From Candidatus Uhrbacteria bacterium RIFCSPHIGHO2_02_FULL_46_47 (GTDB taxonomy: Bacteria > Patescibacteriota > Patescibacteriia > GWA2-47-26), in NCBI GenBank assembly GCA_001790815.1, contig MGDU01000020.1:14277-78276 (forward strand): a stretch of DNA of 64,000 nucleotides. Reading direction: 5' to 3'. The translations under genes were made by a program, and so were the position numbers. Positions 1,373-62,007 of this stretch are shown piece after piece (the first letter of the stretch is position 1; every line of letters begins with the position of its first letter). The notes beneath the pieces were generated by a model, which had not been told where the DNA came from, made no database searches, and saw nothing but the letters and a program-made list of their open reading frames with translations.

Positions 1373-1410
1373 GCCTTGAAAATTTCTAATTCACCTAATT
1401 CCTAATTAAC

Positions 1411-4883: not shown

Positions 4884-5203
4884 AAAGTAATATTCGGCTC
4901 GCCGCTGTATTTCGCAGACATTTGCCGCTTATCATTCACTTTTATTCCAAGCCCCCAGGCCAGCGCATTTACGGTGGCGATTACTTGCCGCACTCCACTG
5001 AAGGTTGCCTCACGCATATTGACACTTATGCTTTGTATCGCGCGCCTCTTTAGAGCAACCTTAGATATTGCCCACAAAAGCGGTATTTTGTCAAGCCGTA
5101 CTCGCTTTGTGCGCTTACCAAACCGCACCTCCGCTTCTTTTCCAATCACTTCCACGCACAATTCATTCTGCATTCTGCATTTTACATTCTGCATTCTTTT
5201 CAT
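4880..5203 (-). CDS. Hypothetical small basic protein
   Basis: ORF of 107 aa. Its N-terminus is encoded by a CATTCTG tandem repeat at 5151-5183, and the start codon is uncertain. Confidence 0.3.
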   Translation of the reverse strand: MKRMQNVKCRMQNELCVEVIGKEAEVRFGKRTKRVRLDKIPLLWAISKVALKRRAIQSISVNMREATFSGVRQVIATVNALAWGLGIKVNDKRQMSAKYSGEPNITL

Positions 5204-9857: not shown

Positions 9858-10196
9858 TTAAGGGTATACACGCCGCGCATCTTTATAAATACGGCGCAAA
9901 TTCGGAGATTCACTTTTTTTAAGATCGGCAAATTCCTTGGCAGTCAGTCCGATAATATCCATTGGCACTTGCAACGCCGAACCGCGGCGCATGCTATTAA
10001 GAAGCTGAAGCCGTTCCATAAGCGGCATACGCGCGAAATCCGGAGAAAGCACAATAAGATCAATATCACTGTCGTAGCGCATCTGACCCCGCGCACTACT
10101 GCCAAACAATACTACCTCCTCTACTTGTACCGCAGAAGCAATACTCTTAGCGTAATCGCGAGCTATTTTTTTTGCATTAATGCGTTCTCTATCCAT
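9858..10196 (-). CDS. Minimal nucleotidyltransferase (MNT) antitoxin of a HEPN/MNT module
   Basis: GSSARGQMRYDSDIDLIV is the nucleotidyltransferase GS...DxD motif. It overlaps the HEPN gene by 34 nt, a typical TA operon arrangement. Confidence 0.8.
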   Translation of the reverse strand: MDRERINAKKIARDYAKSIASAVQVEEVVLFGSSARGQMRYDSDIDLIVLSPDFARMPLMERLQLLNSMRRGSALQVPMDIIGLTAKEFADLKKSESPNLRRIYKDARRVYP

Positions 10197-10573
10197 ATAA
10201 ACAGTTCCTTAGTTTTATTAAGAATATCCTCAGCATTCTTACGGTTATAGGTGAATGAAAATTTTGGCGCAAATGGCAAATCTGGGTACCGTGGGATCAG
10301 ATAATGTGGCTGTAATTCGTCAATAAACTGTACAAATTTTTCTGGAATTTCAAGTTTAGTCGCAGTACGCAGAGCAGTAAGATCATGAATCTTTTTGACT
10401 TCTAAATCCTGCTCCACCAGGTGTGCCTTAAGAATTTTTTCAATCGATTGATGGCAATGGAATACCACTACCTGATACGCGCTCCCCCGCTTTGCTCCAT
10501 ATTGCATCTGCACTTCAGCCGCATCCAAATCAGCTCGCGCAAATTCAACCCACTTTTTGGTAATATCCTTCAT
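10163..10573 (-). CDS. HEPN-domain toxin of a HEPN/MNT module
   Basis: All-alpha protein with the YLIPRYPD (Rx4-6H-type RYP) motif characteristic of HEPN partners of MNT. Confidence 0.75.
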   Translation of the reverse strand: MKDITKKWVEFARADLDAAEVQMQYGAKRGSAYQVVVFHCHQSIEKILKAHLVEQDLEVKKIHDLTALRTATKLEIPEKFVQFIDELQPHYLIPRYPDLPFAPKFSFTYNRKNAEDILNKTKELFIWIENALMQKK

Positions 10574-11071: not shown

Positions 11072-11169
11072 ATTGATTATGATACGAATCTACAAATGAT
11101 TGGCGAATCTTCGAATATGCGAATTCGTATATTGGTAGATTCGTCATTAATTCGCTGATTCGTATCGTA

Positions 11170-11697
11170 TTACGATTTAGACTCTTTAATTGCATTTAAT
11201 ACCTGCACCAATCCGCGCAAATTTCCAGCCAGTACATTTACAAAACCAGAGATTGGTGCTTTTACCGTGCCAACAAGTTTTGCCAAAAGCTCGACCCGAC
11301 TTGGCAAACTTGCCAGCGCTTTAATTTGGTTTGTATCTACAAACTTTCCTTCAAAAAGGCCGCCCAAAATCTTGAACGCCTCAAATTCTTTAGCTGTGGT
11401 GGCTGCAAATTTCGCCGTAGTCACCTCATCGCTATATCCGGTTACAAGTCCAATATTGCCTTCAAGCTTTTTAGGATCAACAGTGCTTTCCAAGCCGGCA
11501 TTTTTCAACGCGAGTTTCAGAAGTGACTTTTTGATCACTTCATAATCCACCGCTTCAGCCCAAGATTTTTCCCGAATCTTTTGCGCATCCTTAACTTTGA
11601 GTCCCTTGTAATCAACAAGAACCGCTCCTTTCATTTTTTTGAACTTATCAGTCAAGTCCGCAACACTTTGTTCTTTTTGTGTACGTGTCTTTGGCAT
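11170..11697 (-). CDS. rplJ: 50S ribosomal protein L10
   Basis: MPKTRTQKEQSVADLTDKFKKMKGAVLVDYKGLKV... is a typical L10. It lies immediately upstream of rplL. Confidence 0.93.
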   Translation of the reverse strand: MPKTRTQKEQSVADLTDKFKKMKGAVLVDYKGLKVKDAQKIREKSWAEAVDYEVIKKSLLKLALKNAGLESTVDPKKLEGNIGLVTGYSDEVTTAKFAATTAKEFEAFKILGGLFEGKFVDTNQIKALASLPSRVELLAKLVGTVKAPISGFVNVLAGNLRGLVQVLNAIKESKS

Positions 11698-12291: not shown

Positions 12292-12561
12292 TTATTTGAT
12301 TTTGAAATCTCTTAAAAGTTTGTCTGATTCTTCCCACTCCACATCCACTTTTTCAACCTTTGCCCATTTTGGCCCTTGTTTGCACCAATTTAAAAATTCC
12401 TGCAGTTGCGTTTCTTCTCCTTGCGCTACAATTTCCACTCCACCATTCGCATTTCTTGCCCAGCCAGTCAGTCCCAACTCCTTTGCGCGCTTTTGCGCTG
12501 AAGCCCTAAAAAACACCCCCACCACATCTCCTTTTATTTTTATATGCAGTTGTTTTTGCAT
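12292..12561 (-). CDS. acyP: Acylphosphatase
   Basis: 89 aa. VxGxVQGVxFR-like KGDVVGVFFRASAQ... and the GWARNANGGVEIVAQG motif are present. Confidence 0.85.
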   Translation of the reverse strand: MQKQLHIKIKGDVVGVFFRASAQKRAKELGLTGWARNANGGVEIVAQGEETQLQEFLNWCKQGPKWAKVEKVDVEWEESDKLLRDFKIK

Positions 12562-12585
12562 ACTTTATAATATATCAAATTGCGC

Positions 12586-12640
12586 AAAAAATTAAAGACC
12601 GTCCGGATGGTCGTGGGCTTTTGGCCTACACCCGGACGGT
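12586..12640 (-). terminator. Rho-independent terminator (stem ACCGTCCGG/CCGGACGGT followed by a T-run on the minus strand)
   Basis: Perfect 9-bp GC-rich stem followed, on the minus strand, by TTTAATTTTTT. Confidence 0.6.
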
Positions 12641-12805
12641 GAACTCCTCACTAACGATCTGTGCCACAGATGGGTTGAGCTACGGGGCTGTCCCGTGCCA
12701 TTGCCGGATCTGTGTCAAGACCCATCTTCTGAGCTTGCGCTCTTTACATGCGATTTTCACGCATGCGGCCTGAGAGGTAGGCCTGGTGCCGGCGTCGTCG
12801 TCGGG

Positions 12806-12943
12806 CTACTTGCCGCCGTCGAGGTAGTCGAAAAACTCGGTGGCGAGCGCCTTCGGCGGACCCGTGGCCCCCATGATGAACGCGGTCATGTTGTCCTTTC
12901 TGCCCGTGTGGGCTGCTTCGAGGCGACCACCGTGGCCACCCAT
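12806..12943 (-). CDS. Small GC-rich ORF (45 aa, MGGHGGRLEAAHTGRKDNMTAFIMGATGPPKALATEFFDYLDGGK) with its own promoter and terminator
   Basis: Promoter on the minus strand: TTGACA (12982-12977), 17-nt spacer, TAGAGT (12959-12954), then GAAGGTG 5 nt before the ATG. Rho-independent terminator hairpin at 12640-12599 plus a T-run. It is below the 60-aa cutoff of the supplied ORF track. Confidence 0.45.
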   Translation of the reverse strand: MGGHGGRLEAAHTGRKDNMTAFIMGATGPPKALATEFFDYLDGGK

Positions 12944-13229
12944 TTGCACCTTCACTCTACTCCTTTTTCACCTCTTTGTCAAGCCCAAAAAAAGCCGCCA
13001 GCTGAAGACCGCCGCACCAGAACAAGTTCGGTGCAGGACAGGCCGGCGACTACTTCTTACCTCTCTAGGCTGGCGCGCGGTGGCGGCTTGCAGCAAAAAT
13101 GTTGCGCAGGCCGAACAGGCACGGTGCCGAACGAAGTGAGGCGAGTGAGGCCGAGCACAAAGAGCGGGGTGCACGCTGGGCACCCCGACTCTGGTTTTTG
13201 CGCAAGTTGCCGACGCGCGACAGCCGCCC

Positions 13230-13814
13230 CTATCCCCCCAAACTAAACCGTACAAATCTGCGGACTTGGATATTTTCGCCAAGTTTGGAAATTTTACTTT
13301 TGACTACTTCTTCAATAGTGAGGTCTTCATCTTTGATAAATGACTGGCGCATGAGGCAAACATCCGAATACCATTTGTCCAGTTTGCCTTGCACAATTTT
13401 CTCCACAATATTTGCTGGCTTACCTGTCGTTTCTTCACCGTAGATTGATTTTTCTTTTTCAACCACTTCTTGCGGCACATCTTCCGGCTTTACATACAAA
13501 GGATTGGTGGCCGCAATTTGAAGCGCCAGATCATGGGCCAACTCTTCAAATTCCGGATTGCGCGCCACAAAATCAGTTTCACAAAGAAGCTCAACAAGTA
13601 CGCCAACTTTTCCGCCGCCGTGCACATAAGCGTGCACAACCCCTTCGTTGGTTGCGCGCTCGGCTTTTTTGGCGGCCTTAAGCACACCGCTTTTGCGCAA
13701 ATTCGTAGTGGCTTTTTCAATATCGCCTTGAGTTTCCTCCAGCGCTTTTTTCGCGTCAAGCACACCAGCGCCGGTTTGCTCGCGAAGTTGCATGACAAGT
13801 TTTGGATCGATCAT
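13230..13814 (-). CDS. tsf: Elongation factor Ts
   Basis: MIDPKLVMQLREQTGAGVLDAKKALEE... is the UBA-like N-terminus. It lies downstream of rpsB, as is conserved. Confidence 0.92.
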   Translation of the reverse strand: MIDPKLVMQLREQTGAGVLDAKKALEETQGDIEKATTNLRKSGVLKAAKKAERATNEGVVHAYVHGGGKVGVLVELLCETDFVARNPEFEELAHDLALQIAATNPLYVKPEDVPQEVVEKEKSIYGEETTGKPANIVEKIVQGKLDKWYSDVCLMRQSFIKDEDLTIEEVVKSKISKLGENIQVRRFVRFSLGG

Positions 13815-13856
13815 AATTGTTTGAGTAAATTAAGTAAATCAAGCAAGGCAAGTAAA

Positions 13857-14606
13857 TTAAGCAACCGATACCACTTGATTTACCTGATTTACTTGCGCAC
13901 TTGATTCACTCGTCTTCCCCTCTTCCTTCCCCTCCTGATACGCCTGCGCAATACATTTTACCACAAGTTCAATTGATTTTACAGCATCGTCATTGCCCGG
14001 AATTGGATATTGTACGCGCTCCGGGTTTGCATTGGTATCGCAAAGCGCGATTATCGGAATTTTTTTTTGATTGGCTTCGGCAAGCGCGGTTTCCTCATGC
14101 TTGATATCCACGATAAATAACGCATCCGGCAGTTTGGTCAAGGTGGAAATACCGTGCACAAGCTGGCTCATCCGTTCAATATCTTTTGAAAAATCAAGTT
14201 GTTCTTTTTTGGTATATTTTCCAAGCTCGCCGCGCTCCTGCTTGCCCTTAAGATCAAGATATTTTCTGATGAGCTTGTAAAGTTCGGCCCAATTAGTAAT
14301 TGTTCCGCCCAGCCAGCGATTTTCAACATAGGGCGCTCCGACTTCAGTTGCGTATTTTTTAATAAGCGGCGCGGCCTGCTTTTTGGTGCCCACAAACAAG
14401 AGCACCTTCCCCTCGCGACCCAGCGCCCTGACAAACTCGCAGGCGCGCGCAAGCTCCTCGCGCGTTTTTTCCAAATTAATAAGATGCACCCCGCCGCGCG
14501 CGCCAAAAATAAAAGGCGCCATTTTAGGGTGCCAACGTGATGTCTTATGGCCAAAGTGAACTCCGGCCTTAAGCAAATCCAATAATTCTGGGGTAGTGTT
14601 TGACAT
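13857..14606 (-). CDS. rpsB: 30S ribosomal protein S2
   Basis: ...LLKAGVHFGHKTSRWHPKMAPFIFGARGGVHLINLEKT... is the S2 signature. Confidence 0.95.
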   Translation of the reverse strand: MSNTTPELLDLLKAGVHFGHKTSRWHPKMAPFIFGARGGVHLINLEKTREELARACEFVRALGREGKVLLFVGTKKQAAPLIKKYATEVGAPYVENRWLGGTITNWAELYKLIRKYLDLKGKQERGELGKYTKKEQLDFSKDIERMSQLVHGISTLTKLPDALFIVDIKHEETALAEANQKKIPIIALCDTNANPERVQYPIPGNDDAVKSIELVVKCIAQAYQEGKEEGKTSESSAQVNQVNQVVSVA

Positions 14607-14788
14607 AGTTTGGTCCTTAATTCTTCCGCATGGCCCATCTTTGATTTCCGCTAAAGCGGAAAGCAGGACACGAAAGCCAGACGTGTATTTATTAATTGTT
14701 CCTTAGTCTACCAAACCACCCCAGGCTTGTCAAGCTTTTCAGTTCACAGGGCAGGGGCACGGGCTGCATCTACAAATCCTGGCTCGGT

Positions 14789-14826
14789 GTGTAAATTTTG
14801 AGTCTAAATTTGACTAAAACTTACAC
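14789..14826. repeat. Partial (terminal 37 nt) copy of the 147-bp foldback repeat unit
   Basis: Identical to 15976-16012 (TGTAAATTTTGAGTCTAAATTTGACTAAAACTTACAC). Confidence 0.85.
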
Positions 14827-14902
14827 TGGGAAGTTCTTTGCCAAAATGAAAAAGACCGGCGTCCCGTAGAGAGCCGGCGAGGAAGGAGCGTGGTTGCTGT
14901 GG

Positions 14903-15406
14903 TCAGCGTTGCTGGCGGCCTGCCCGTCGAAGCATGGCGAGAACGTCACGCCGTGCGGTGGCGCCAAGATAATGCTCAGCGTAGAGGTGTTCAATCGCCC
15001 TCTCTGCCTCCTGCATCGTGAGGAGGCTCACTTCAAAGGCGGTGATCAAGACCTTGCCGGTCCGAATCCATGGAAGCCCGAGCTGCTTCGCTGCCGCGAG
15101 TGCCTTGGCATCGTCGATGATCAGAACCGCATCCTCTTCGCGGCCGGCAAGCACAAGGCAAGCTGCTTCGCCCATGTCCAGATCGTAGGTCTGCTCGATC
15201 CCATTGCGCGCCCCAGAGTCTACGGTCATCACCTGGACACAGGTCAGCGAGGCGATCTCAAAGCCGGGACGGGTTTCTCCAGCCCGCGCCACTTCGTTAC
15301 GCACATCTTCCGGAACGATGATAGTTTCAAACAGAACCGGAAGGAGGTCGAGAAGGCCAACCTTGGAAAGCGCGATGATGGGACCGGAATCGACGATGGC
15401 TCTCAT
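14903..15406 (-). CDS. PIN-domain protein (COG2405/DUF3368-type), putative toxin
   Basis: The N-terminal IVDSGPIIALSKVGLLDLL pattern is typical of COG2405 PIN proteins. It overlaps the upstream UPF0175 gene by 4 nt. The locus is GC-rich. Confidence 0.65.
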   Translation of the reverse strand: MRAIVDSGPIIALSKVGLLDLLPVLFETIIVPEDVRNEVARAGETRPGFEIASLTCVQVMTVDSGARNGIEQTYDLDMGEAACLVLAGREEDAVLIIDDAKALAAAKQLGLPWIRTGKVLITAFEVSLLTMQEAERAIEHLYAEHYLGATARRDVLAMLRRAGRQQR

Positions 15407-15777
15407 GCAACTCTGGATCTGCGCTTGGCATGCGCCTTCATTGCACGCACTATACGCCGATCAGACACCGCTGCCGCCTCCGAATCATCCGCGTAGTACA
15501 AGCCCTCGGCTTTGAGGAGTTCCAGAAACTCCGCAAGTCGCATGCCCAGCGTCTTGGCCGCGACCCCAGCGGAGCAGGAACCTCTCTTGAAGAGGGCGAG
15601 TACAAGCTGACGACGACCCTCGCGAGCTGCCTCCGCCTTGAGCTTCGCGCTCACATGCGTGGGCAACTCGAAATCCACATGTACGCGTGTGGCCACAGTA
15701 GAACCTCCTGTTGTGTGTTGCATAGAGTGAACGGCAGCGTGGGCTGCCAGAAATTGAGAACCGACCTTTATCTTCAC
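15403..15777 (-). CDS. UPF0175 (COG2886) family antitoxin
   Basis: LVLALFKRGSCSAGVAAKTLGMRLAEFLELLKAEGL matches the UPF0175 HTH-like core. It is paired with a COG2405 PIN protein. Confidence 0.6.
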   Translation of the reverse strand: MKIKVGSQFLAAHAAVHSMQHTTGGSTVATRVHVDFELPTHVSAKLKAEAAREGRRQLVLALFKRGSCSAGVAAKTLGMRLAEFLELLKAEGLYYADDSEAAAVSDRRIVRAMKAHAKRRSRVA

Positions 15778-15865
15778 AATACACCTTGGTGCGGAACTCC
15801 GTCAATGCCTCGCGTCTCCGTCGTCTCCCTCTTCGTCTCCACCTGAGCATCGTGTTCCCGCCGAT

Positions 15866-16012
15866 TGTAAGTTTTAGTCAAAAATGTATGCATTTTTTAC
15901 AAAAAAATAGAATCGCTCATTGGCGAATATTCGCTAGAATAAGCAATCTTTGACAAGTTTGATATTCTATTTTTTTGTAAATTTTGAGTCTAAATTTGAC
16001 TAAAACTTACAC
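15866..16012. repeat. 147-bp quasi-palindromic foldback repeat unit (copy 1)
   Basis: Near-perfect reverse complement of 16639-16787. Termini are GTAAGTTTTAGTC...GACTAAAACTTAC, with the internal palindrome GCGAATATTCGC. Confidence 0.9.
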
Positions 16013-17165: not shown

Positions 17166-17244
17166 GGGCCCGCTGATTTTGAATACGCGGATATCGCTGA
17201 TATAATAGGTATCAGCGCAATCAGCGCCAAAAGATCAGCGGACT

Positions 17245-18156
17245 TTGTATTTTATGAACCCGGAACTAAAACCATATCAATCCCGCCTTAAAGAACTGGA
17301 AGAGCTTTTCACTTCTCCGGAAGTGCTTTCTGATCCTCAAAAACTTGCGCAGTTAAGCCGTGAATATTCCCAGATCAAAGCTACATTTGCGCGTACTGCA
17401 AAAGCGGGAGATTTAGGCGAGCGTAATGTCATTATGGAAATACGCGCTGGCACGGGTGGGGACGAAGCCGCGCTTTTTGCCGCGCAGCTGTATCGCATGT
17501 ACGCGCGCTTTGCCGAACGGCAAAAATGGGCGGTGCGTGTGGCCTCTTCCAGCCGCACGGATATCGGCGGATTTAAAGAAATCATTTTTTCAATTGAAGG
17601 TAAAGGAGCGTATCGCGCGCTGAAATATGAATCTGGCGTGCACCGCGTCCAGCGCGTTCCGGAAACTGAAAAATCCGGCCGCGTCCATACTTCAACCGCG
17701 ACTGTGGCAGTGCTTCCTGAAGCAGAAGAAGTTGATATTAAAATTGATCCAAAAGATTTGCGCATTGATACCATGACTGCTGGAGGACATGGCGGGCAAT
17801 CAGTCAATACAACCTACTCCGCAGTGCGCATTACGCACATTGCCACCAACCTGGTGGTCATTTGTCAGGATGAACGGTCGCAGCAGCAAAATAAATCCAA
17901 AGCCATGCAAGTTTTGCGCGCGCGGCTTTTTGCTTTGGAGCAGGAAAAAAAGCGGGCAGAAAGAGAGGCGCAGCGGCGCGGACAAATCGGCACTGGCGAG
18001 CGCAGCGAAAAAATCCGCACCTACAATTTTCCCCAAGACCGTGTTACGGATCATCGCGTTAAAGAAAATTTTCACAATTTGCCAAAAATTATGGATGGCG
18101 AAATCAATCCTATCATTGAAACTTTACAAAAAGAAGGAATTGACACACAAAAGTAA
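17245..18156 (+). CDS. prfA: Peptide chain release factor 1
   Basis: GGQ motif ([21 protein letters not shown]) and PxT-region-like sequence. Short CPR-type RF1. Confidence 0.9.
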
Positions 18157-21977: not shown

Positions 21978-23063
21978 TCACACCCGCGCGCGAATTGATT
22001 GCACAATGCCAAGCAATAAAAAATTGGAAAGCATGGCTGAACCGCCTAAAGATACAAATGGCAAAGGCAAGCCCACAATTGGCAAAAGACCAACATTCAT
22101 TCCAATATTCAAAATCATTTGCATGGCCACCAAAATGGCAAATCCAGCGATGCAAAAAAGCGCGAATCCGTCGGTTGTTTTCCTGGAAAGAATCAAAAGC
22201 CGCCACATCATGACTGCGTAGCAGGCCAAAATCAACACCACAATAAAAAATCCCAATTGCTCGGCAAGCACGGCAAAAATAAAATCTGTTTGCGCTTCTG
22301 GCAAAAATCTAAGCTGTGATTGCGATCCCTCCCCCAGTCCGCGTCCCAAAATCCCGCCAGCGCCAACTGCAATTACGGATTGGCGGATATTGTAGCCGCG
22401 ACCGAATGGATCTGAAGCGGGATTAACAAAGCTTGAAACGCGCGCTTTTTGATAATCGTGCAGGAAAAAATTCCACCCAAGCACCAAAGTGACGGCCAGA
22501 AGCATTAATCCAAAAAAAACATAACGGCGCGGCACATTTGTTAAAAGCAGCATCCCGAGCGTTATGCCAAAAAGCGTAAGCGCTGATCCAAAATCCGGCT
22601 GCAAAAGCGTAGGCGCCACATACAATCCCGAAATAATTCCGAGATTTAATATAACCTTAAAATCAATTATGTGCGCTTTGAGCGACAGATATTTTGCCAG
22701 CACAACAATCAAAATTACTTTTGCAAGCTCAACCGGCTGAACGGTAAATGTACCGATTTGAAACCATCCGCGCGTGCCGCGAATAGTGGTTCCAAAAATT
22801 ACCACCGCCAGCAAAATTAGCGCTCCCGCAACATACAAAGTCTTCGAAAGTGAACGAAAGGCGCGATAATCAAAGTAACTTATAAAAAGCACCAGGACAA
22901 TTCCGCCTCCTACAAATGCAATCTGTTTTTGAAAATTGGCAAGCGTCCCGGGTGCTTGCGCCAAATCAACGCTCCAAATTCCAAGAATGCCAAGACCTGA
23001 AAGTATGAGCGTGCACAAAAAAAGGATCCAATCGATCCTCCTAAATATCATCATTAACCGCAT
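21978..23063 (-). CDS. FtsW/RodA/SpoVE (SEDS) family peptidoglycan glycosyltransferase
   Basis: ~10 TM helices and the conserved ...SDPFGRGYNIRQSVIAVGAGGILGRGLGEGSQ...LPEAQTDFIFAVLAEQLGF block. Confidence 0.88.
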   Translation of the reverse strand: MRLMMIFRRIDWILFLCTLILSGLGILGIWSVDLAQAPGTLANFQKQIAFVGGGIVLVLFISYFDYRAFRSLSKTLYVAGALILLAVVIFGTTIRGTRGWFQIGTFTVQPVELAKVILIVVLAKYLSLKAHIIDFKVILNLGIISGLYVAPTLLQPDFGSALTLFGITLGMLLLTNVPRRYVFFGLMLLAVTLVLGWNFFLHDYQKARVSSFVNPASDPFGRGYNIRQSVIAVGAGGILGRGLGEGSQSQLRFLPEAQTDFIFAVLAEQLGFFIVVLILACYAVMMWRLLILSRKTTDGFALFCIAGFAILVAMQMILNIGMNVGLLPIVGLPLPFVSLGGSAMLSNFLLLGIVQSIRARV

Positions 23064-23163
23064 AGCTGTGATGCAAATCTACAAATCTTATGCACATTTA
23101 CGAATTGCGAATAAATTCATTTGTATTTGTAGATTGGCATGAAATTCGTATATTGGCATCATA

Positions 23164-26094
<2,931 letters not shown>

Positions 26095-26882: not shown

Positions 26883-27051
26883 AGTACCCTAGCTTGACAC
26901 AAAAGTGACTATATTGTAAAGTAATTAACTGGCCCTGGGACGGGGCTTTTTTAGGACAACACGATGCCAATATACGAATTTCATGCCAATCTACAAATAC
27001 GAATTCGCAATTCGTAGATTAGCATAAGATTTGTAGATTTGCATCACAATT

Positions 27052-27237: not shown

Positions 27238-27338
27238 CAATGCGGATGATACGGATGACCATGCGGATCTACAGATGATACGAACGAATTATCCGCAGAT
27301 CCGAATGAATCCGTAGATCAGCATTACCAATCTGTAGT

Positions 27339-27884: not shown

Positions 27885-27978
27885 GCCCGCTGATCGGAAG
27901 ACACTGATAACGCTGATAGTAAAGCGTAGTCAGTGTAATCAAGATCAGCGATATCAGCGACTAAATAATCAGCGGACT

Positions 27979-28401
27979 ATGGCAAAGAAAGTAAAGACAG
28001 TCATTAAACTCCAAATTCCCGCAGGCAAGGCAAACCCCGCGCCTCCGGTTGGTCCAGCACTTGGTCAACATGGTCTTAACATTTCCGAGTTTTGCCAAAA
28101 ATTCAACGCCGCGACATCAAAGCTGGGCGATGATATTATTCCGGTTGAAATTACGGTTTTTGAAGACCGCACCTATACTTTCAAAACCAAAACTCCACCG
28201 GCATCTGAACTTTTGAAAAAAGCCGCCGGCATTACAAAAGGTTCTGGCAAGGCGCTTGTTGAAAAAGTCGGCAAAGTAACACGCGCGCAAATTCGCGAGA
28301 TTGCGGAGCGTAAACTTCCGGACTTAAATACTAAAGATGTTGAAGCCGCGATGCGCACCATTGAAGGCACCGCGAAACAGATGGGACTGGAAGTAGTATG
28401 A
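27979..28401 (+). CDS. rplK: 50S ribosomal protein L11
   Basis: [35 protein letters not shown]... is the L11 signature. Confidence 0.95.
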
Positions 28402-28504
28402 TACGAATCACCGAATATCTGACGAATCTGCGAATATACGAATTCGTTGATTCGCATATTTGTTGATTCGCCTAAAATTTGTAGATTCGTATCACATATA
28501 TTAT

Positions 28505-32645: not shown

Positions 32646-33347
32646 CTAGAGCTTTTGTAATTTATATACAACATCCTTTCTTTCCACCACAATTTCCCAT
32701 CCTTTTTTCTTGGCCACTTGGTACAAGCCGCTTGAAGGATTAAAAGCAATTGGCCGATCAACTATTTCAAACATTGAAATATCGCTTTCTGTATCCCCGA
32801 CCGCGATTGACCCGCGCAAGGTAACATTGTATTTTTCCAGCACATGCTTGATAAGCAAATGTTTGTTCCGCACGGAATAGATGTATTTCATATTTCCTGT
32901 ATAGCGGCCGCTTTTGTCAGTTTCAAGAACCCAGCCGTAGGTCTTATCAAATCGCAGGAAACGATTGTACCAACGCACAATTTCAAATGGCGATCCGGAT
33001 ATGGCCACAATAAAGTAATTCTTTTTCTTTAGCTCTAAAATAAGATCGCGCGTAAAGCGATACACATGCGACTTTTCACTGGATACAATTTTACGACTAA
33101 TGCGCCGTATATCGCTTTGCTTTTTCCCTCTGATATGCGCGATAAATACTTTTACTAATTTTTCAAGATACACATCATATGATCCTTTGCGATTAAGCCA
33201 GGCGCGCAAATACGGATCCACTTCTTCCCGTGCGCCTTTTGAAAAAATTCCTTCATTCACTAAATAGGAAAAAAGCCGGCGGGTTAAACTGCTTCTAAAA
33301 ATCGTTCCATCCACATCAAACACCGCTAATTTCCGCAATTTCTGCAT
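32646..33347 (-). CDS. HAD-superfamily hydrolase (HAD-IB-like)
   Basis: LAVFDVDGTI is HAD motif I. C-terminal ...GDTESDISMF is motif IV. Confidence 0.6.
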   Translation of the reverse strand: MQKLRKLAVFDVDGTIFRSSLTRRLFSYLVNEGIFSKGAREEVDPYLRAWLNRKGSYDVYLEKLVKVFIAHIRGKKQSDIRRISRKIVSSEKSHVYRFTRDLILELKKKNYFIVAISGSPFEIVRWYNRFLRFDKTYGWVLETDKSGRYTGNMKYIYSVRNKHLLIKHVLEKYNVTLRGSIAVGDTESDISMFEIVDRPIAFNPSSGLYQVAKKKGWEIVVERKDVVYKLQKL

Positions 33348-33465
33348 AGATGTGATGCAAATCTACAAATCTTATGCTAATTTACAAATTGCGAATTTGT
33401 ATTTGTAGATTTGAATGACATTTGTATATTGGCATTGTAGCACAGTTATGATATAGTCCCCTAAT

Positions 33466-35545: not shown

Positions 35546-36157
35546 ATGATATCTATTATTGCCGCGGTTGCAAAAAATGGAGTAATCGGTGCGAAAAATG
35601 ATTTGCCCTGGTATTTGCCCGAAGACTTGAAGCATTTTAAAGAGCTCACTACAGGTAAAACAGTGCTGATGGGGCGCAAAACTTTTGAATCAATTCTGAA
35701 ACGTTTAGGCAAACCCTTGCCCAATCGCAAAAATGTGGTGGTCACGCGGGATCGAAATTATACCCTCTCACCCCCTCCTCAATCCTCCCCCATCAAGGGG
35801 GAGGAAGAAAAAGGAAAAAATCCTCTCCCACAAGGGGAGAGGAAGAACCAAAAAATTCCCTCTCCCTTAATGGGAGAGGGTGCTCCGACCGCAGTCGGAG
35901 CGGGTGAGGGTGTATGTGTACACCACTCGGTTGACGAAGCGCTTGAGCACCACAGTGCCGAAGAAATTATGGTTGCCGGCGGAGGCGAGATATTTAGGCA
36001 AACAATGGACAAAGCAGATACGCTTTATGTTACTGAAGTCGACAAAATTGTAGAAGGCGATGTTTATTTTCCAACGATTGATCCAAAGATCTGGAAAGAA
36101 GTTACCCGCGAACCACATGATGGTTTTTCATTTGTCACCTATATTCGCAATTCGTAG
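35546..36157 (+). CDS. folA: Dihydrofolate reductase carrying a ~55-aa in-frame repeat-element insertion
   Basis: MISIIAAVAKNGVIGAKNDLPWYLPEDLKHFKELTTGKTVLMGRKTFESI is canonical DHFR. The insertion TLSPPPQSSPIKGEEEKGKNPLPQGERKNQKIPSPLMGEGAPTAVGAGEGV is encoded by 35762-35928. Confidence 0.88.
   Translation: MISIIAAVAKNGVIGAKNDLPWYLPEDLKHFKELTTGKTVLMGRKTFESILKRLGKPLPNRKNVVVTRDRNYTLSPPPQSSPIKGEEEKGKNPLPQGERKNQKIPSPLMGEGAPTAVGAGEGVCVHHSVDEALEHHSAEEIMVAGGGEIFRQTMDKADTLYVTEVDKIVEGDVYFPTIDPKIWKEVTREPHDGFSFVTYIRNS
35762..35928. repeat. Composite nested palindromic element (outer CCCTCACCC...GGGTGAGGG; inner family-B core CCCCCTCCTCAATCCTCCCCCATCAAGGGGGAGG; CCCTCTCCC..GGGAGAGGG; GCTCCGACCGCAGTCGGAGC)
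   Basis: Four nested hairpins, GC-rich relative to the flanking folA sequence. Confidence 0.85.
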
Positions 36158-36177
36158 ATTGGCATGAAATTTGTAGA

Positions 36178-36879
36178 TTGGCATCACATATGAAAGGAAC
36201 TTTCATCGTTATTGAAGGCACAGACGGCTCTGGAAAAACAACCCATCTTGAACTGGCTGTAAAAAAACTCACTGCCGACAGCCGTGCAGTTGAAGTTGTG
36301 GATTTTCCACAATACGGCAAAAAAAGTGCTGGCCCGGTTGAAGAATACTTAAATGGGAAATATGGCAGCGCTCAAGAAGTGTCCCCTTATGTGGCTTCAC
36401 TTTTCTATGCAGTTGATCGTTTTGATGCCTCCTTCAAAATCAATAAAGCGCTTACTGATGGAAAAATCGTGCTGGCCAATCGCTATGTTCCGTCTAACAT
36501 CGCGCATCAAGGCGCAAAAATTACGGACATTGCTGAGCGGCAAAAATTCATGCATTGGGTAGAGGAGATAGAGTACGGCATTATGAAACTCCCCAGACCA
36601 GATCGCGTGATTTTCCTGCATGTACCAGCTCATATAAGCTTCGAGCTTGTCGAGAAGAAAAACGAACGCGCCTATTTGCAAGAAGGGAAAAAACGTGATA
36701 TCCATGAATCAGATCTTTTATACCAAAAAGCAGTGGAGCAAAGCTATCTTGAGCTTGCCGCGCATGATACTACTGTAAAGACGATAGAGTGCGCGCCGGA
36801 AGGAAAACTCCTTTACATTGAAGAAATTCATCCTTTAGTCATGAAACAAATTTATGATCTCTTTCAGCAATCTGCTTAA
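36178..36879 (+). CDS. tmk: Thymidylate kinase
   Basis: GTFIVIEGTDGSGKTT is the dTMP kinase P-loop, and the LID region is present. Confidence 0.9.
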   Translation: MASHMKGTFIVIEGTDGSGKTTHLELAVKKLTADSRAVEVVDFPQYGKKSAGPVEEYLNGKYGSAQEVSPYVASLFYAVDRFDASFKINKALTDGKIVLANRYVPSNIAHQGAKITDIAERQKFMHWVEEIEYGIMKLPRPDRVIFLHVPAHISFELVEKKNERAYLQEGKKRDIHESDLLYQKAVEQSYLELAAHDTTVKTIECAPEGKLLYIEEIHPLVMKQIYDLFQQSA

Positions 36880-53280: not shown

Positions 53281-53396
53281 ATTGATGAGTACGTAGTATG
53301 TAGTAGGTAGTGCGTAGTCATTGAATTCGAGCGTAACACCTACGTACTACTTACTACCTTCTACCTACTGACATGATGCATCCTATCACAGCACTC

Positions 53397-54621: not shown

Positions 54622-54900
54622 GCAAGGGGGGATGTGGATAACTTGGATGCCATTGCTTGACAAAAATGCGTAATATGGTATGCTGAATATGGTTATCAAT
54701 CCATGAGCCACACTCCTATCCGGAGTCAAAAAACAGTCCCGCATTTGCGGGATTGTTTTTCATATTCACAATTTTTGCTATACTTAAGAGTGCACGGAGT
54801 GGCTAGGAGGGTATTGCTATACAGTTTTATAGCCATGGATTGATAACCCATTGACCCCGAAAGGGGTGTGGTGCAACTCCACTGCCCTCCGTGTAAAAAT

Positions 54901-57965: not shown

Positions 57966-59111
57966 TTAAAATTGCTCTAGAAAATTCAGATCCGCAATAT
58001 AAAATGCCCGAATATCGCTGAGTTTCAACTTCATCATAAGCATGCGTTCAATTCCCCAACCGCAGGCAAACCCGCTATATTCCTTTGGATCAATTCCGCC
58101 GGCTTTTAAAACATTGGGGTGTACCATGCCAGCTCCGCCCAGTTCATGCCACCCGCTTTTGCATACTTTGCACCGCTCGCCATGTATTTCTCCAGTGCCA
58201 CCACAAATGCCGCAGGAAATATCAATTTCAAAACTCGGTTCAGTAAACCGAAAATGAAATGGCCGCAAACGCGTGCGCCGATCTTTTCCATAATAAGCGC
58301 GCGCAAAATAATCAAGCGTGCCTTTCAAATGTGTAACCGATACATTGCGATCAATCAACAACCCTTCAAATTGATGAAACATCGGCGCGTGCGTAACATC
58401 AGATTGCCGGCGATAGCATTTTGCAATATTGATCATGCGAATGGGTGGCCGCCGGCGCTCCATCTCGCGCACCTGGCCATTGGAAGTGTGCGGGGTAAGT
58501 ACCATCCTGCCTAACTTTGGATGTTCTGCGGCCCTCACCCTCCCCTCTCTCTCGGGGAGAGGGTGTCCGTTAGGACGGGTGAGGGTCTGCTGCGAGCCAG
58601 CAATGAAGAACGTTTCCCATTCATCGCGCGCTGGATGGCCCTTGGGCATGTTTAAACTTTCAAACGCGTAATAATCCCAATCTATTTCCGGATAACGCAT
58701 ACGCTGAAATCCCAGTTGCGCGAAAATCCGGCTGATTTCTTCAATCGCCTGCGTGGTGATATGCAAATGTCCGTACGGCAGGCGCGCGCCCGGAAGCGTT
58801 ACATCCAGCGCCTCGGCTTCAGCCAGTTTTTCCAAAGCAAGTGTTTGCATTGCATTTTCCCGTTGTTCTAGTGCTCTAGTGATTTCATGCTTTAATGCGT
58901 TAAGCTCCTGCCCTTGCCTTGCCCGCTCATCACCTTTTAATTTTGTAAGCTGCGCAAAAAACTCGGCCACAATCCCCTTGCGGCCCAGATATTTCACCCG
59001 CAATTCCTCCAGCACACTTTGTGATTGTGCTTGCTCAATAGCCTGCTTGGCCTCCTGTAAAATATTATTGGATTTCATATTATTCGTAATGTCGTAGTTT
59101 CGTAGCGACAT
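57966..59111 (-). CDS. pheS: Phenylalanyl-tRNA synthetase alpha subunit with an in-frame repeat insertion
   Basis: Class II core (...FRFTEPSFEIDI..., GWGIERMLM). Insertion 58522-58590. The true start may be the internal Met at ~59078. Confidence 0.93.
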   Translation of the reverse strand: MSLRNYDITNNMKSNNILQEAKQAIEQAQSQSVLEELRVKYLGRKGIVAEFFAQLTKLKGDERARQGQELNALKHEITRALEQRENAMQTLALEKLAEAEALDVTLPGARLPYGHLHITTQAIEEISRIFAQLGFQRMRYPEIDWDYYAFESLNMPKGHPARDEWETFFIAGSQQTLTRPNGHPLPEREGRVRAAEHPKLGRMVLTPHTSNGQVREMERRRPPIRMINIAKCYRRQSDVTHAPMFHQFEGLLIDRNVSVTHLKGTLDYFARAYYGKDRRTRLRPFHFRFTEPSFEIDISCGICGGTGEIHGERCKVCKSGWHELGGAGMVHPNVLKAGGIDPKEYSGFACGWGIERMLMMKLKLSDIRAFYIADLNFLEQF

Positions 59112-59127
59112 TCGTAGATTCGTGACA

Positions 59128-60237
59128 TCATTGTACTATGCCTTTGAAAAACTCCACAATCCTCCCTCCATATCTCCCAAGATCTTTGTACGTAACAAAA
59201 AGCACAAGAAGAATTAAAAGCGCAAAACCAATACTATGAATCCATCCTTCAACTTTTCGCGAAACTGGACGGCGCAGTATTTTTTCTATACCAATAAAAA
59301 GAATGCGTCCGCCGTCAAGCGCAGGAAATGGAAGAATATTAAGAATCGCGAGATTCAGCGATAAAACAGAAACAAACTGCAATAAAAATATAAATCCTTG
59401 CCGAGCGGCCTGGCCAGTTAAAACCGCGATGCCCACTGGTCCGGCCAAATCAGCAGTTACAGGACGGCCAAGTATGGCATCGCGAATCAACTCAAAAATA
59501 GAAAGTACAATTGCTTTCAAAAGCACTCCGGTTAGTACAATTGCCTTTGGCATAGCCAACCAAAAAGGATATTTCACTATTGCCGCGTCGCTAAGCGCTA
59601 CCCCTATTCCCGGCTTATTGGTTTGTTCAAGCAGTTTGGGCGTAACCTCCACTTCACGACGTGCACTATCGCGCTCCAAAGTTAAGCGAATCGGCTTTTC
59701 TAGAAATTCTGTTACAAAGGAACGAAACTCTTCCGCGCTTTGAAATTCTTTGCCATTGCCGGAAATAACACGATCAGTCGGTTTGATTTGAGCGACCTCA
59801 GCCGGAGACCCCGGAAGCACTCCCATAATCTCAATACGCCGATCTTTTATTGTTGCGTATTTTGAAATTCCATTATCAATTGGCTGTGGAAATCCAATCA
59901 TATATCCGCCGGCAATCAGTACTGCCGCAAGCGCCACATTCATAATCACTCCAGCGGCAATAATGCCAATGCGCACTCCTGCGCCGCGATTGGCAAAACT
60001 ATCATGATCTTCTGCTCCTTCACCCGATTCACCTTTAATTTTCACAAATCCGCCAAAAGGCAGGGCATTAATTGAATATAAAGTATCTCCCTTGCGCACC
60101 CCAAAAATGCGCGGCGGAAATCCAAAACCAAATTCATCCACCCGTATTCCGGCTTTTTTTGCAGTAATAAAATGTCCGAACTCGTGGACAAAAACTAGAA
60201 CAGAGAGAACGAGGAGAAAAATAAGGAGAGTAATCAT
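59128..60237 (-). CDS. Site-2 (RIP) zinc metalloprotease RseP-like
   Basis: HEFGH motif, PDZ domain and a C-terminal LDGG motif. Confidence 0.88.
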   Translation of the reverse strand: MITLLIFLLVLSVLVFVHEFGHFITAKKAGIRVDEFGFGFPPRIFGVRKGDTLYSINALPFGGFVKIKGESGEGAEDHDSFANRGAGVRIGIIAAGVIMNVALAAVLIAGGYMIGFPQPIDNGISKYATIKDRRIEIMGVLPGSPAEVAQIKPTDRVISGNGKEFQSAEEFRSFVTEFLEKPIRLTLERDSARREVEVTPKLLEQTNKPGIGVALSDAAIVKYPFWLAMPKAIVLTGVLLKAIVLSIFELIRDAILGRPVTADLAGPVGIAVLTGQAARQGFIFLLQFVSVLSLNLAILNILPFPALDGGRILFIGIEKILRRPVSRKVEGWIHSIGFALLILLVLFVTYKDLGRYGGRIVEFFKGIVQ

Positions 60238-60285
60238 GGTTGAGAGGATTAAGGATTAAGCGAGATAAGCAAGGTAAGCAATTAC

Positions 60286-61963: not shown

Positions 61964-62007
61964 TAATAATCATAATTCATACTTCATAATTCATAATTCT
62001 CTCAAAT

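What the first reader, a model, noticed from the sequence alone, without database searches (positions are those of the whole stretch)
36160..36180. Conserved motif ATTTGTAGATT(G/C)GCATCACA placed 2-8 nt before many start codons, with no SD
The same 19-21-nt word directly precedes the ATG of tmk (36160-36177), secE (27030-27051), rodA/ftsW (reverse complement of 23064-23085), the HAD gene 32646..33347 (reverse complement of 33350-33370), rplA (28481-28504), rplL (reverse complement of 11075-11097) and, in degraded form, nusG and pheS. TAGATT resembles a -10 hexamer sitting ~10 nt before the ATG. This suggests leaderless or near-leaderless transcription, or a dedicated translational-control motif, for a subset of core genes. 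Other genes in the same genome use a classical AGGAGG SD.
Basis: seen in the sequence. Interest (0 to 1): 0.6.

Follow-up and report, generated by a model that had tools for sequence, protein, structure and literature searches.

The report
Conserved promoter repeat abutting start codons
A 19-base repeat sits directly in front of many core genes of this tiny groundwater bacterium and of relatives across the Candidate Phyla Radiation; it is most likely a compact promoter that makes messenger RNAs with almost no leader, which would explain how these genes are expressed without a ribosome-binding site.

Summary
ATTTGTAGATTSGCATCACA has 11 matches (up to 3 mismatches) against 0 in shuffles. All lie in six intergenic regions. 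Six copies end 1-8 nt before the ATG of tmk, secE, rodA, HAD, rplA and rplL, with no SD.

The word is the last unit of a larger module: ATTCGCA, one or two 19-bp units, then the CATCACA unit. Modules often sit back-to-back as cassettes of about 110 bp.

The window is from a Rifle-aquifer Patescibacteria (CPR) MAG. The exact 20-mer recurs in Sungbacteria, Liptonbacteria, Moranbacteria, Parcubacteria and Saccharibacteria MAGs and in 93 metagenome stretches. In 58% of unique instances it lies 0-12 nt before the start codon of unrelated housekeeping genes. At the tmk orthologue, 53/53 module bases are identical while the flanks are 68-75% identical.

Best reading (about 0.55): a promoter cassette giving 5-7-nt leaders, in a genome where SD is rare and ordinary promoters also sit 7-12 nt from ATG.

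Caveats:
- 47% of non-ascertained last units lack the A expected of a -10 hexamer; the invariant core is GATTnGCAT.
- 23% of copies face the stop codon of a convergent gene.
- A bound factor or an RNA-level role is not excluded.

No prior description was found.

The parts
36143..36188 (+). tmk module: ATTCGCA (36143-49), distal unit ATTCGTAGATTGGCATGAA (36150-68), then last unit ATTTGTAGATTGGCATCACA (36169-88). ATG is at 36190. The dfrA stop codon is the TAG of the distal TAGATT (36155-57).
   Evidence: 53/53 identical to orthologous locus L110; TTGTCA-17-TAGATT found for the distal unit
27003..27048 (+). secE module (ATTCGCA, distal unit, last unit). ATG is at 27052.
26960..27004 (-). Partner arm of the secE cassette: ATTTGTAGATTGGCATGAA + ATTCGTATATTGGCATCGTG. 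It points towards SpoU/TrmH (ATG 26882, about 77 nt further on).
   Evidence: cassette 88-89% identical over 109-112 nt to the HAD/thyA cassette
23067..23112 (-). rodA/ftsW module. ATG is at 23063.
23119..23163 (+). Antisense-facing arm (TAGATT unit + TATATT unit). It ends directly at the stop codon (23164-66) of the minus-strand ORF 23164-23994, and no ORF follows it.
33351..33396 (-). HAD hydrolase module. ATG is at 33347.
33395..33457 (+). thyA-side arm (33395-33440). Its TTGGCA (33429-34) lies 17 nt upstream of TATAGT (33452-57), which lies 8 nt before the thyA ATG at 33466.
28442..28496 (+). rplA module with three units (TTGATT, TTGATT, TAGATT...GTATCACA). ATG is at 28505.
28400..28443 (-). 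Degenerate reverse-oriented arm (CGAAT words) abutting the rplK stop codon.
11078..11124 (-). rplL module (ATTCGCAT, ATTCGAAGATTCGCCAATC, ATTTGTAGATTCGTATCATA). ATG is at 11071.
11123..11174 (+). Degenerate arm in the opposite orientation, reaching the rplJ stop codon (11170).
27238..27338 (+). secE-nusG intergenic cassette built from variant words in both arms (ATT replaced by ATC: ATCCGTAGATCAGCAT). nusG ATG is at 27339.
   Evidence: the orthologous intergenic region in L034 carries two perfect copies back-to-back
59082..59130 (+). Units ATTCGTAG... on the + strand, at or inside the called start of pheS (minus strand). They face the stop codon of the M50 protease gene. This is not a pheS upstream motif.

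Best explanation
The word is the gene-proximal unit of a compact promoter cassette that is often bidirectional and is shared by several Patescibacteria (CPR) lineages.

**Structure.** One arm is ATTCGCA, then one or two 19-bp units (ATTyG-TAnATT-nGCAT-nnn), then a last unit ending GCATCA(C/T)A.

**Inferred working.**
- RNA polymerase holoenzyme binds the last unit. There TAGATT acts as the -10, nGCAT as the discriminator, and C-A-C as the start site.
- The preceding unit lies 19 bp upstream. This puts its TTyGTA exactly 17 bp from TAGATT, so it can act as a weak -35 surrogate.
- Transcription then starts in CACA. The mRNA carries only about 5-7 nt (ACA plus 2-4 nt) before AUG and no SD.
- It is translated by a 5'-end-proximal, SD-independent route, like the many genes of this genome whose ordinary promoters lie 7-12 nt from the ATG.
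- Each core gene preceded by the module, including genes inside classical ribosomal-protein operons, would then be its own transcription unit.

**Shown:** the sequence architecture, its orientation, its position, its conservation under purifying selection, the range of lineages and the variety of genes served.

**Inferred:** that it is bound by RNA polymerase, where transcription starts, and how the mRNA is translated.
For: 1. **Non-random and intergenic.** 11 matches against 0 expected. All copies in the window lie in six intergenic regions.
2. **Position and orientation.** Of 74 unique instances away from contig edges in CPR contigs, 43 have the start codon of an ORF of at least 60 aa 0-12 nt after CATCACA (mode 2-4 nt).
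3. **Many unrelated housekeeping genes are served.** These include L22 (twice), S7, S17, S18, L31, L24, NusA, NusG, DnaJ, ClpP, TGT, NrdD, Mur ligase, MreC, PNPase, SecDF and Tmk. This argues for a general expression signal and against a pathway-specific regulon.
4. **Purifying selection.**
   - Window against L110 at tmk: 53/53 module positions identical, flanks 68% and 75% identical. The longest identical run is 58 nt against 11 for the next.
   - The rpsF start of four organisms keeps GATTnGCATCACA while the coding DNA diverges.
5. **Lineage range.** The exact 20-mer occurs in Sungbacteria, Liptonbacteria, Moranbacteria, Parcubacteria and Saccharibacteria MAGs. The 4 clearly non-CPR hits match the roughly 4 chance hits expected.
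6. **Geometry.**
   - The 19-bp period dominates (138 pairs).
   - It yields a 17-bp spacer between TTyGTA and TAGATT.
   - T at -35 and ATTnGCAT at -28..-21 are the best conserved non-ascertained positions.
7. **Genome context.** SD 5-mers precede 8 of 71 genes. Canonical TTGACA-N16-17-TAnnnT promoters lie 7-12 nt from the ATG.
8. **No gene-less locations.** Modules occur only in intergenic regions that contain a gene start, never in a convergent one.
9. **Not a structured RNA.** There are no Rfam hits, and the fold z-score is +1.3.
Against: 1. **The -10 reading is not general.** In last units not selected by the search word, the hexamer is TAGATT 13, CGGATT 9, TTGATT 4, CTGATT 3, CATATT 2, TATATT 2 and TAAATT 1. 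So 47% lack the A at -11 that sigma-70 -10 recognition needs. L027 has CGGATT where its rpsF orthologues have TAGATT. The invariant core is GATTnGCAT.
2. **Unexplained spacer conservation.** The best conserved upstream piece (ATTnGCAT at -28..-21) falls in what would be the spacer, where sigma-70 holoenzyme makes no base-specific contacts.
3. **Copies with no ORF to drive.** 17 of 74 exact copies face the stop codon of a convergent gene.
4. **Spacings that fit no -35/-10 geometry.** Octamers also occur at 11-, 9- and 8-bp spacings.
5. **The hexamer is too far from the ATG for a true leaderless mRNA.** The gap is 10-17 nt here, against 7-12 nt for the canonical promoters in this window.
6. **No 5'-end data were available.**
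Confidence: 0.55

Rival explanations
1. The module is an operator array for a conserved sequence-specific DNA-binding protein, either a global regulator or a roadblock/insulator protein. The protein recognises the 11-mer core (nn)GATTnGCAT in tandem and inverted copies. The array overlaps, or substitutes for part of, the promoter of growth-related genes.
For: - The invariant part is GATTnGCAT and not the TA of a -10.
- The same octamer is the best conserved part of the upstream unit, in the supposed spacer.
- Copies occur at 19, 11, 9 and 8 bp, and as arrays of 3-5 octamers after the last unit (L076, L116, L120).
- Both orientations occur, and back-to-back cassettes are frequent: 58% have a reverse unit within 150 nt.
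- The conservation of about 40 contiguous positions exceeds what a sigma-70 promoter normally needs.
- Parcubacteria RNA polymerase alpha is reported to lack its C-terminal domain (PMC8321222, citing Nelson and Stegen 2015), so promoter recognition may be unusual.
Against: - No candidate protein was identified.
- The narrow distance of the last unit to the ATG (2-4 nt in about 65% of cases) and the special CAYA ending of the last unit alone are not explained by a factor site.
- In most copies there is no other -10-like hexamer between the module and the ATG, so the module must still contain or replace the core promoter.
Confidence: 0.2
2. The last unit acts at the RNA level. Transcription starts at the upstream unit or further upstream. 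GAUUnGCAUCACA-N2-4-AUG is then a short, unstructured leader that marks the start codon for SD-independent initiation, or a processing site that creates a near-leaderless 5' end.
For: - The distance to AUG is tightly clustered.
- CGGATT-type last units still precede start codons at 0-5 nt, and some are immediately preceded by a TAAATT or TATATT unit that could be the real -10.
- The distal tmk unit has a good -35 (TTGTCA) at 17 bp.
- In L027 three adjacent genes each carry the element (units at 1857, 2409 and 2972). Two are rpsF and rpsR. The middle one is assumed from the usual rpsF-ssb-rpsR order to be ssb and was not annotated.
- The region is unstructured.
- The terminal ACA next to AUG recalls MazF-type cleavage sites (own knowledge).
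Against: - 23% of exact copies face stop codons of convergent genes, and one lies in a 23S rRNA insertion, where no start codon follows.
- The upstream units and ATTCGCA are conserved too.
- CAUCACA is not complementary to the canonical 16S 3' tail (own knowledge; the 16S of this genome was not available).
- The gap ranges from 0 to 12 nt.
Confidence: 0.12
3. The cassette of about 110 bp is a selfish, MITE-like repeat that carries outward-facing promoters, as Correia elements do in Neisseria. It has spread within and between CPR genomes, and its position next to genes reflects insertion and retention.
For: - Back-to-back arms give an inverted-repeat element with ends TGTGATGC...GCATCACA.
- Cassettes in one genome are about 89% identical over 109-112 nt.
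- Near-identical cassettes precede unrelated genes.
- One copy lies in a 621-nt insertion in a 23S rRNA gene.
- The exact word is patchy: 27 hits among 185,579 species genomes.
- The position is labile: perfect copies lie before nusG in L034, while the window has them before secE.
Against: - No target-site duplications are visible at the three window cassettes.
- Single arms occur without a partner, for example at tmk.
- Orthologous positions are kept across organisms at 68-75% DNA identity, with locus-specific features such as the TTGATT distal unit of rpsF.
- The element is spread over class- to phylum-level CPR lineages, unlike known MITE families.
- There are no hits in viral contigs.
- Strain-level contigs L001-L006 are identical, so no presence/absence polymorphism could be seen.
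Confidence: 0.08

Closest known systems
Promoters of leaderless genes in Actinobacteria and Deinococcus-Thermus (a -10 TANNNT about 6-7 nt before the start codon; own knowledge)
   Same: There is a -10-like hexamer close to the ATG and no SD. Many core genes are affected. The same window also has canonical promoters 7-12 nt from the ATG.
   Different: - The hexamer ends 10-17 nt before the ATG, so a leader of 5-7 nt is expected rather than none.
- About 40 contiguous positions are conserved instead of 6.
- The units are tandem with a 19-bp period.
- The A of the hexamer is dispensable in 47% of independent copies.
Bacteroidetes sigma-AB promoters, TTTG-N19-21-TAnnTTTG (-33/-7 elements; own knowledge)
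   Same: TTyG at -35..-32, a 19-nt gap, then TAGATTnG reproduces the pattern and the spacing. G at -5 is conserved. These organisms also make little use of SD.
   Different: - The T at -6 is fully degenerate here.
- The organism is a CPR bacterium that also has canonical TTGACA/TATAAT promoters.
- The conserved GCAT, the CAYA ending and the spacer octamer have no Bacteroidetes counterpart.
Correia repeat-enclosed elements of Neisseria and other promoter-bearing MITEs (own knowledge)
   Same: These are intergenic elements of about 100-150 bp with inverted ends, present in many copies per genome, that carry outward-reading promoter elements next to genes.
   Different: - No target-site duplication was seen.
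- Single arms exist.
- The element is conserved at orthologous positions and across phylum-level lineages.
Pho boxes and OmpR/PhoB-type direct-repeat activator sites that replace the -35 element (own knowledge)
   Same: They are tandem direct repeats with an 11-bp sub-period, placed immediately upstream of or overlapping a promoter with a poor -35.
   Different: The main period is 19 bp. The last repeat overlaps the -10 and start region. The genes served are general housekeeping genes, and no regulator is known.
-35-independent '-10 plus downstream GGGA' promoters of Thermus, and extended -10 promoters (own knowledge)
   Same: Conserved bases directly downstream of the hexamer, with G at -5, could compensate for a weak -35.
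   Different: The downstream sequence is nGCAT, not GGGA. The TG lies at -14/-13, one position off the canonical extended -10.

Membership tests
Sigma-70-type promoter | -10 hexamer with A at position 2 and T at position 6 | tested here: inconclusive
   All six window sites have TAGATT. Of 34 independent last units elsewhere, 16 have CGGATT, TTGATT or CTGATT.
Sigma-70-type promoter | -35 hexamer resembling TTGACA, 16-18 bp upstream | tested here: inconclusive
   TTyGTA (3 of 6) lies at exactly 17 bp, and T at -35 is conserved. The near-consensus TTGGCA of the unit is only 9 bp away. The scan accepts only tmk's distal unit and thyA.
Sigma-70-type promoter | Lies upstream of, and points towards, a gene or RNA start | tested here: met
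   43 of 74 copies lie within 12 nt of a start codon. The antisense-facing copies lie only in intergenic regions that also contain a gene start.
Sigma-70-type promoter | Primary transcript 5' end 6-9 nt downstream of the -10 | not testable with these tools
   No transcript data were available.
Leaderless-gene promoter | -10 ends 6-8 nt before the start codon, so that the 5' end is the A of AUG | tested here: not met
   The gap is 10-17 nt in the window and 9 + (0-12) nt elsewhere, with a mode of 11-13.
Leaderless-gene promoter | No SD between promoter and start | tested here: met
   Only 1-8 nt follow the word, and none is purine-rich.
Bacteroidetes -33/-7 promoter | TAnnTTTG with TG at -6/-5, and TTTG 19-21 nt upstream | tested here: not met
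   Position -6 is degenerate (A 25, G 21, T 20, C 7 of 73). The G at -5 and the 19-nt gap do fit.
Shine-Dalgarno-like ribosome-binding element | Complementary to the 16S 3' tail; found only before start codons | tested here: not met
   23% of copies face stop codons, and one lies inside 23S. Complementarity was judged only against the canonical tail (own knowledge); the 16S of this genome was not available.
MITE / Correia-like element | Terminal inverted repeats | tested here: met
   Back-to-back arms occur in about 58% of instances, and window cassettes are 89% alike.
MITE / Correia-like element | Target-site duplication and presence/absence polymorphism | tested here: inconclusive
   No flanking direct repeats are seen at the three window cassettes. 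Strain contigs L001-L006 are identical, so polymorphism could not be assessed.
Structured cis-regulatory RNA (riboswitch or leader) | Match to a known family, or a stable conserved fold | tested here: not met
   Rfam gives 0 hits in the window. The fold z-score is +1.34.
Transcription-factor operator array | Repeated recognition core at fixed phasing | tested here: met
   GATTnGCAT recurs at 19 bp (138 pairs) and 11 bp (63 pairs).
Transcription-factor operator array | A cognate DNA-binding protein | not testable with these tools
   No candidate was identified. No sigma factor or regulator gene was recognised in the window.

The most novel reading that the evidence does not exclude
GATTnGCAT units are not read as a sigma-70 -10 or -35 at all. 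They are the recognition code of a CPR-specific initiation system. This would be either a dedicated conserved factor or an unusual holoenzyme; Parcubacteria alpha is reported to lack its C-terminal domain. It would dock on tandem 11- or 19-bp units, fire in both directions, fix the transcript 5' end a few nucleotides from AUG, and so turn classical operons into strings of monocistronic, SD-less genes.
Probability: 0.2. Interest if true: 0.8.

Novelty: new variant of a known kind. Interest (0 to 1): 0.6.

Why it matters
Almost nothing is known about how Candidate Phyla Radiation bacteria start transcription and translation.

- **A concrete element to test.** This is a module of about 45 bp, kept base-for-base between organisms whose flanking genes have diverged by 25-30%. 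It is placed 2-4 nt from the start codons of ribosomal, chaperone, cell-wall and nucleotide-metabolism genes that lack an SD. That makes it directly usable for transcript 5'-end mapping, in vitro transcription and pull-downs.
- **If it is a promoter.** Many core genes would be made as near-leaderless monocistronic mRNAs, and classical ribosomal-protein operons would be broken up. It would also offer a portable strong promoter for the new genetic systems in Saccharibacteria.
- **Practical uses.** It is a marker for correcting start-codon calls in CPR genomes: the two gene-caller lengths for RodA, 361 and 328 aa, are resolved in favour of 361. It also helps recognise CPR contigs that carry other labels, such as L027.

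Tried and rejected
- **Known RNA families.** The Rfam gathering scan of the window found none.
- **RNA structure of the module.** No fold was found (z +1.34).
- **RNA genes as a test of promoter against translation signal.**
  - tRNA genes in related loci use plain TATAAT and no module.
  - The two rRNA-linked cases are ambiguous: L124 lies inside a 23S insertion, and L126 lies 34 nt before a group I intron hit.
- **Viral contigs.** No copies were found.
- **Strain-level polymorphism.** L001-L006 are 99.9-100% identical to the window.
- **RNA hairpin between the two arms of a cassette.** The degenerate n positions of paired arms do not co-vary in the three window cassettes (read), so this was dropped.
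- **Alternative register** (-35 = TTnGCA of the upstream unit, -10 = CATCAY, 17-bp spacer). The -35 is good, but C at the last -10 position is frequent and the hexamer ends only 2-6 nt before the ATG. This was kept only as a caveat.
- **Resemblances considered from memory and dismissed on spacing or sequence:**
  - sigma-54 promoter (TGGCAC-N5-TTGCA);
  - DnaA box;
  - CRP-like TGTGA-N6-TCACA;
  - LexA, Fur, NrdR and CtsR boxes;
  - TIGR arrays (PMC12045711).
- **Coding potential of the motif.** The frame relative to the ATG varies (gap 0-12 nt), and in-frame stops occur.
- **Literature searches** by sequence and by topic found no description of the motif. The TM7x transcript-start paper (PubMed 35975994) is not held.
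- **Organism name.** The name of GCA_001791415.1 could not be retrieved.
Full report
**1. The observation**

The 20-mer ATTTGTAGATTSGCATCACA has 11 matches with up to 3 mismatches, against none in 100 dinucleotide shuffles. The core TANATTNGNAT has 21 exact matches against 3.45 expected.

Six copies end 1-8 nt before an ATG:

| Gene | Word (strand) | ATG |
|---|---|---|
| tmk | 36169-88 (+) | 36190 |
| secE | 27029-48 (+) | 27052 |
| rodA | 23067-86 (-) | 23063 |
| HAD | 33351-70 (-) | 33347 |
| rplA | 28477-96 (+) | 28505 |
| rplL | 11078-97 (-) | 11071 |

- The nusG 'degraded form' is a systematic variant, with ATT changed to ATC in every word of both arms.
- The pheS case is reverse-oriented and overlaps the called start, so it is not an upstream motif.

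**2. Anatomy**

Each word is the last unit of a tandem array: ATTCGCA, then one or two units of 19 bp (ATTyG TAnATT nGCAT nnn), then the unit that ends CATCACA.

Three further arms end TATATTGGCAT. Two point towards SpoU and thyA. One faces the stop codon of the minus-strand ORF 23164-23994.

Arms are commonly back-to-back, giving cassettes of about 110 bp. The secE/SpoU and HAD/thyA cassettes are 88-89% identical over 109-112 nt.

Over 762 kb of related CPR DNA, the same-strand spacing of ATTnG[CT]AT peaks at 19 bp (138 pairs). There are secondary peaks at 11 (63), 9 (37) and 8 (32).

**3. Source and spread**

The window is contig MGEO01000006.1 of GCA_001791415.1, a Rifle-aquifer MAG.

*Species-representative genomes.* The exact word ATTTGTAGATTNGCATCACA occurs in 27 places among 185,579 genomes. 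These include:
- Sungbacteria, Liptonbacteria, Moranbacteria, Parcubacteria-group, Patescibacteria and Saccharibacteria MAGs;
- four clearly unrelated hits, about the number expected by chance for 19 specified bases;
- one contig labelled Bdellovibrionales (L027), whose several further units and rpsF match the CPR loci.

*Other collections.* The metagenome collection gave 93 stretches. Viral contigs gave none.

*Limit.* The exact word is thus spread over several CPR lineages but is patchy. How general relaxed versions are could not be measured.

**4. Conservation**

Positions were numbered with TAGATT at -12..-7, using 73 unique CPR instances.

- The positions not fixed by the search show ATTnGCAT at -28..-21 (1.2-1.4 bits each; n fully degenerate, as at -6).
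- T at -35 carries 0.92 bits. ATTCGCA near -43..-37 is weaker.
- Nothing is conserved beyond -45 or +6.

At the orthologous tmk locus of another organism (L110; Tmk 72% identical), all 53 positions from TATATTCGCA to the ATG are identical. The flanking coding DNA is 68% and 75% identical. The longest identical run is 58 nt, against 11 for the next longest.

At the rpsF start of four organisms, GATTnGCATCACA-yyTT-(A/G)TG is kept while the n position and the coding sequence vary.

**5. Context**

74 unique instances away from contig edges were classified:

| Context after CATCACA | Instances |
|---|---|
| Start codon of an ORF of at least 60 aa within 0-12 nt (mode 2-4) | 43 |
| Abuts the stop codon of a convergent ORF | 17 |
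| Start codon 13 nt downstream (L017, NusA) | 1 |
| Other | 13 |

- The 'other' class includes further octamer arrays and rRNA-linked cases.
- Across the 53 ORF-linked instances, which used looser limits (ORF of at least 50 aa within 40 nt), the start codons are ATG 40, TTG 9 and GTG 4.

The seven antisense-facing copies for which one search found no partner arm were examined. Wherever both flanks could be read, they lie between co-directional genes, in regions that also hold a gene start. None was seen in a convergent region.

The genes served are diverse housekeeping genes: L22 (twice), S7, S17, S18, L31, L24, NusA, NusG, DnaJ, ClpP, TGT, NrdD, Mur ligase, MreC, PNPase, SecDF, PolX and Tmk. 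They include genes that are internal to ribosomal-protein operons in other bacteria. In the window, rplA and rplL likewise have their own modules.

**6. The genome around it**

Of 71 called genes:
- 8 have a unit upstream;
- 8 have a 5-mer SD at -19..-4, against 2-5 in control windows;
- GGAG or GAGG occurs in 10 of 71, against 7% of random 16-nt windows.

Ordinary TTGACA-N16-17-TAnnnT promoters exist and lie 7-12 nt before the ATG. Examples are the genes starting at 31674, 32606, 41206, 16592, 62613, 48725 and 24040.

Across 541 ORFs of the CPR loci, TANNNT is about threefold enriched 6 nt before the start. Very short or absent leaders are therefore a general trait here. The motif marks one hyper-conserved class of upstream region.

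**7. Mechanism**

*Most economical reading: a promoter.*
- The last unit supplies the -10 (TAGATT), a discriminator with G at -5, and a C-A-C start site.
- The 19-bp period places TTyGTA of the preceding unit exactly 17 bp upstream, as a weak -35.
- The mRNA then begins ACA-N2-4-AUG.

*Against a simple sigma-70 reading.*
- In last units found through the tail alone (nG[CT]AT[CG]A[CT]A), the hexamer is TAGATT 13, CGGATT 9, TTGATT 4, CTGATT 3, CATATT 2, TATATT 2 and TAAATT 1.
- L027 carries CGGATT where its rpsF orthologues carry TAGATT.
- What is invariant is GATTnGCAT, which also stands in the supposed spacer.
- Other registers exist. At thyA the unit's TTGGCA is a -35 for a TATAGT 8 nt before the ATG. 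The distal tmk unit has its own TTGTCA -35.

These points keep two alternatives alive: a bound factor, or a transcribed leader element. They are not mutually exclusive with a promoter.

*Other readings.*
- A purely translational role is hard to reconcile with the antisense-facing copies and with a copy inside a 621-nt insertion in a 23S rRNA gene.
- A MITE-like origin is suggested by the inverted-repeat cassettes and the patchy distribution. It is not supported by target-site duplications, and it is opposed by conservation at orthologous positions.

**8. Prior knowledge**

- Full-text searches by sequence and by topic found no description of this element.
- A 2025 survey of bacterial core promoters includes one CPR species, with 188 RNA-seq-inferred starts. 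It notes an unusually variable -10-to-start distance there (PMC12641261).
- Parcubacteria RNA polymerase alpha is reported to lack its C-terminal domain (PMC8321222).
- Comparisons with Bacteroidetes -33/-7 promoters, actinobacterial leaderless promoters, Correia elements, Pho boxes and Thermus -10+GGGA promoters rest on my own knowledge.

**9. Verdict**

The feature is real and strongly selected. It is a lineage-spanning module lying between the promoter and the start codon. It is best explained as a compact, often bidirectional promoter that gives near-leaderless mRNAs (confidence about 0.55). How it is recognised is unresolved. It is a new variant of a known kind of element. Interest: 0.6.

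Noticed in passing
window 1381-1414, 5164-5197, 13824-13861, 53288-53369, 60245-60281, 61966-61999: Many other intergenic regions just upstream of start codons consist of imperfect tandem arrays of 7-9-nt words that differ from region to region: AATTAGG, CATTCTG, AGTAAATCA, AGTACGT/CTACCTA, AGGATTA and ATAATTC. The finding's motif may be the most conserved member of a general 'word-array' style of upstream region in this genome.
   Followed up: partly
window 27943-27981 (before rplK) and 17211-17256 (before prfA): A second word family, ATCAGCG, is repeated three times and ends ATCAGCGGACT, 0-9 nt before the ATG. In the nusG-rplK spacer a reverse-oriented arm also abuts the nusG stop codon. The architecture is the same as for the main motif, but the word differs.
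   Followed up: partly
window 16592, 31674, 32606, 41206, 48725, 62613 (start codons): Canonical TTGACA-N16-17-TAnnnT promoters lie only 7-9 nt before these ATGs. This suggests leaderless or 1-3-nt-leader mRNAs for ordinary genes too.
   Followed up: partly
window about 12300-16000: This stretch has higher G+C (0.50 against about 0.46). It carries toxin-antitoxin-like genes (UPF0175/DUF3368 here, and HEPN/nucleotidyltransferase at 9858-10573). It also holds three of the eight genes that have a classical AGGAG-type SD (starts 12522, 12949 and 15696). It may be acquired DNA.
   Followed up: no
window 54806-54891: ARAGORN calls an 86-nt tRNA-Ile(GAT), but Rfam's tRNA model does not reach threshold anywhere in the window. 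A similar anticodon-arm-like piece lies nearby at about 54690-54720.
   Followed up: no
window 35781-35879: A 37-nt unit is repeated 2.6 times. Each copy forms a G+C-rich hairpin followed by a T run on the minus strand, so these look like tandem terminators, inside or next to dfrA.
   Followed up: no
L124:2350-3455 and L126:7797-8537: In L124 the module lies near the 3' end of a 621-nt insertion in a 23S rRNA gene (model position about 2621), 27 nt before the rRNA sequence resumes. In L126 a full module lies 34 nt upstream of a group I intron hit, downstream of a complete 23S gene.
   Followed up: partly
L037, L061, L111, L112 (about 110 nt directly upstream of the last unit): A shared hairpin-forming element of about 100 nt (cccgcctgctttgaaatgc ... 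gcatttcgggcagg) replaces the first half of the distal unit in several unrelated loci. It may be a small mobile insertion or a small RNA.
   Followed up: no
L076, L087, L106, L116, L120 (regions around the module): Here the modules are embedded in long fields of other word arrays (TTATCTC, GATTTATCYGA, TTTACACAAYG) and are followed by 3-5 ATTCGCAT octamers at a 9-bp spacing. Some words resemble DnaA boxes, so these may be replication-origin-like regions.
   Followed up: no
L027 (contig CAZFIH010000029.1): The contig is labelled 'uncultured Bdellovibrionales'. It nevertheless carries at least five units and an rpsF that aligns closely with the Moranbacteria locus L024, so it is probably a CPR contig or a mis-binned one.
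   Followed up: partly
window 21978-23063: Gene callers give RodA as either 328 or 361 aa in identical contigs. The module ending 3 nt before the upstream ATG (23063) supports the 361-aa start.
   Followed up: partly
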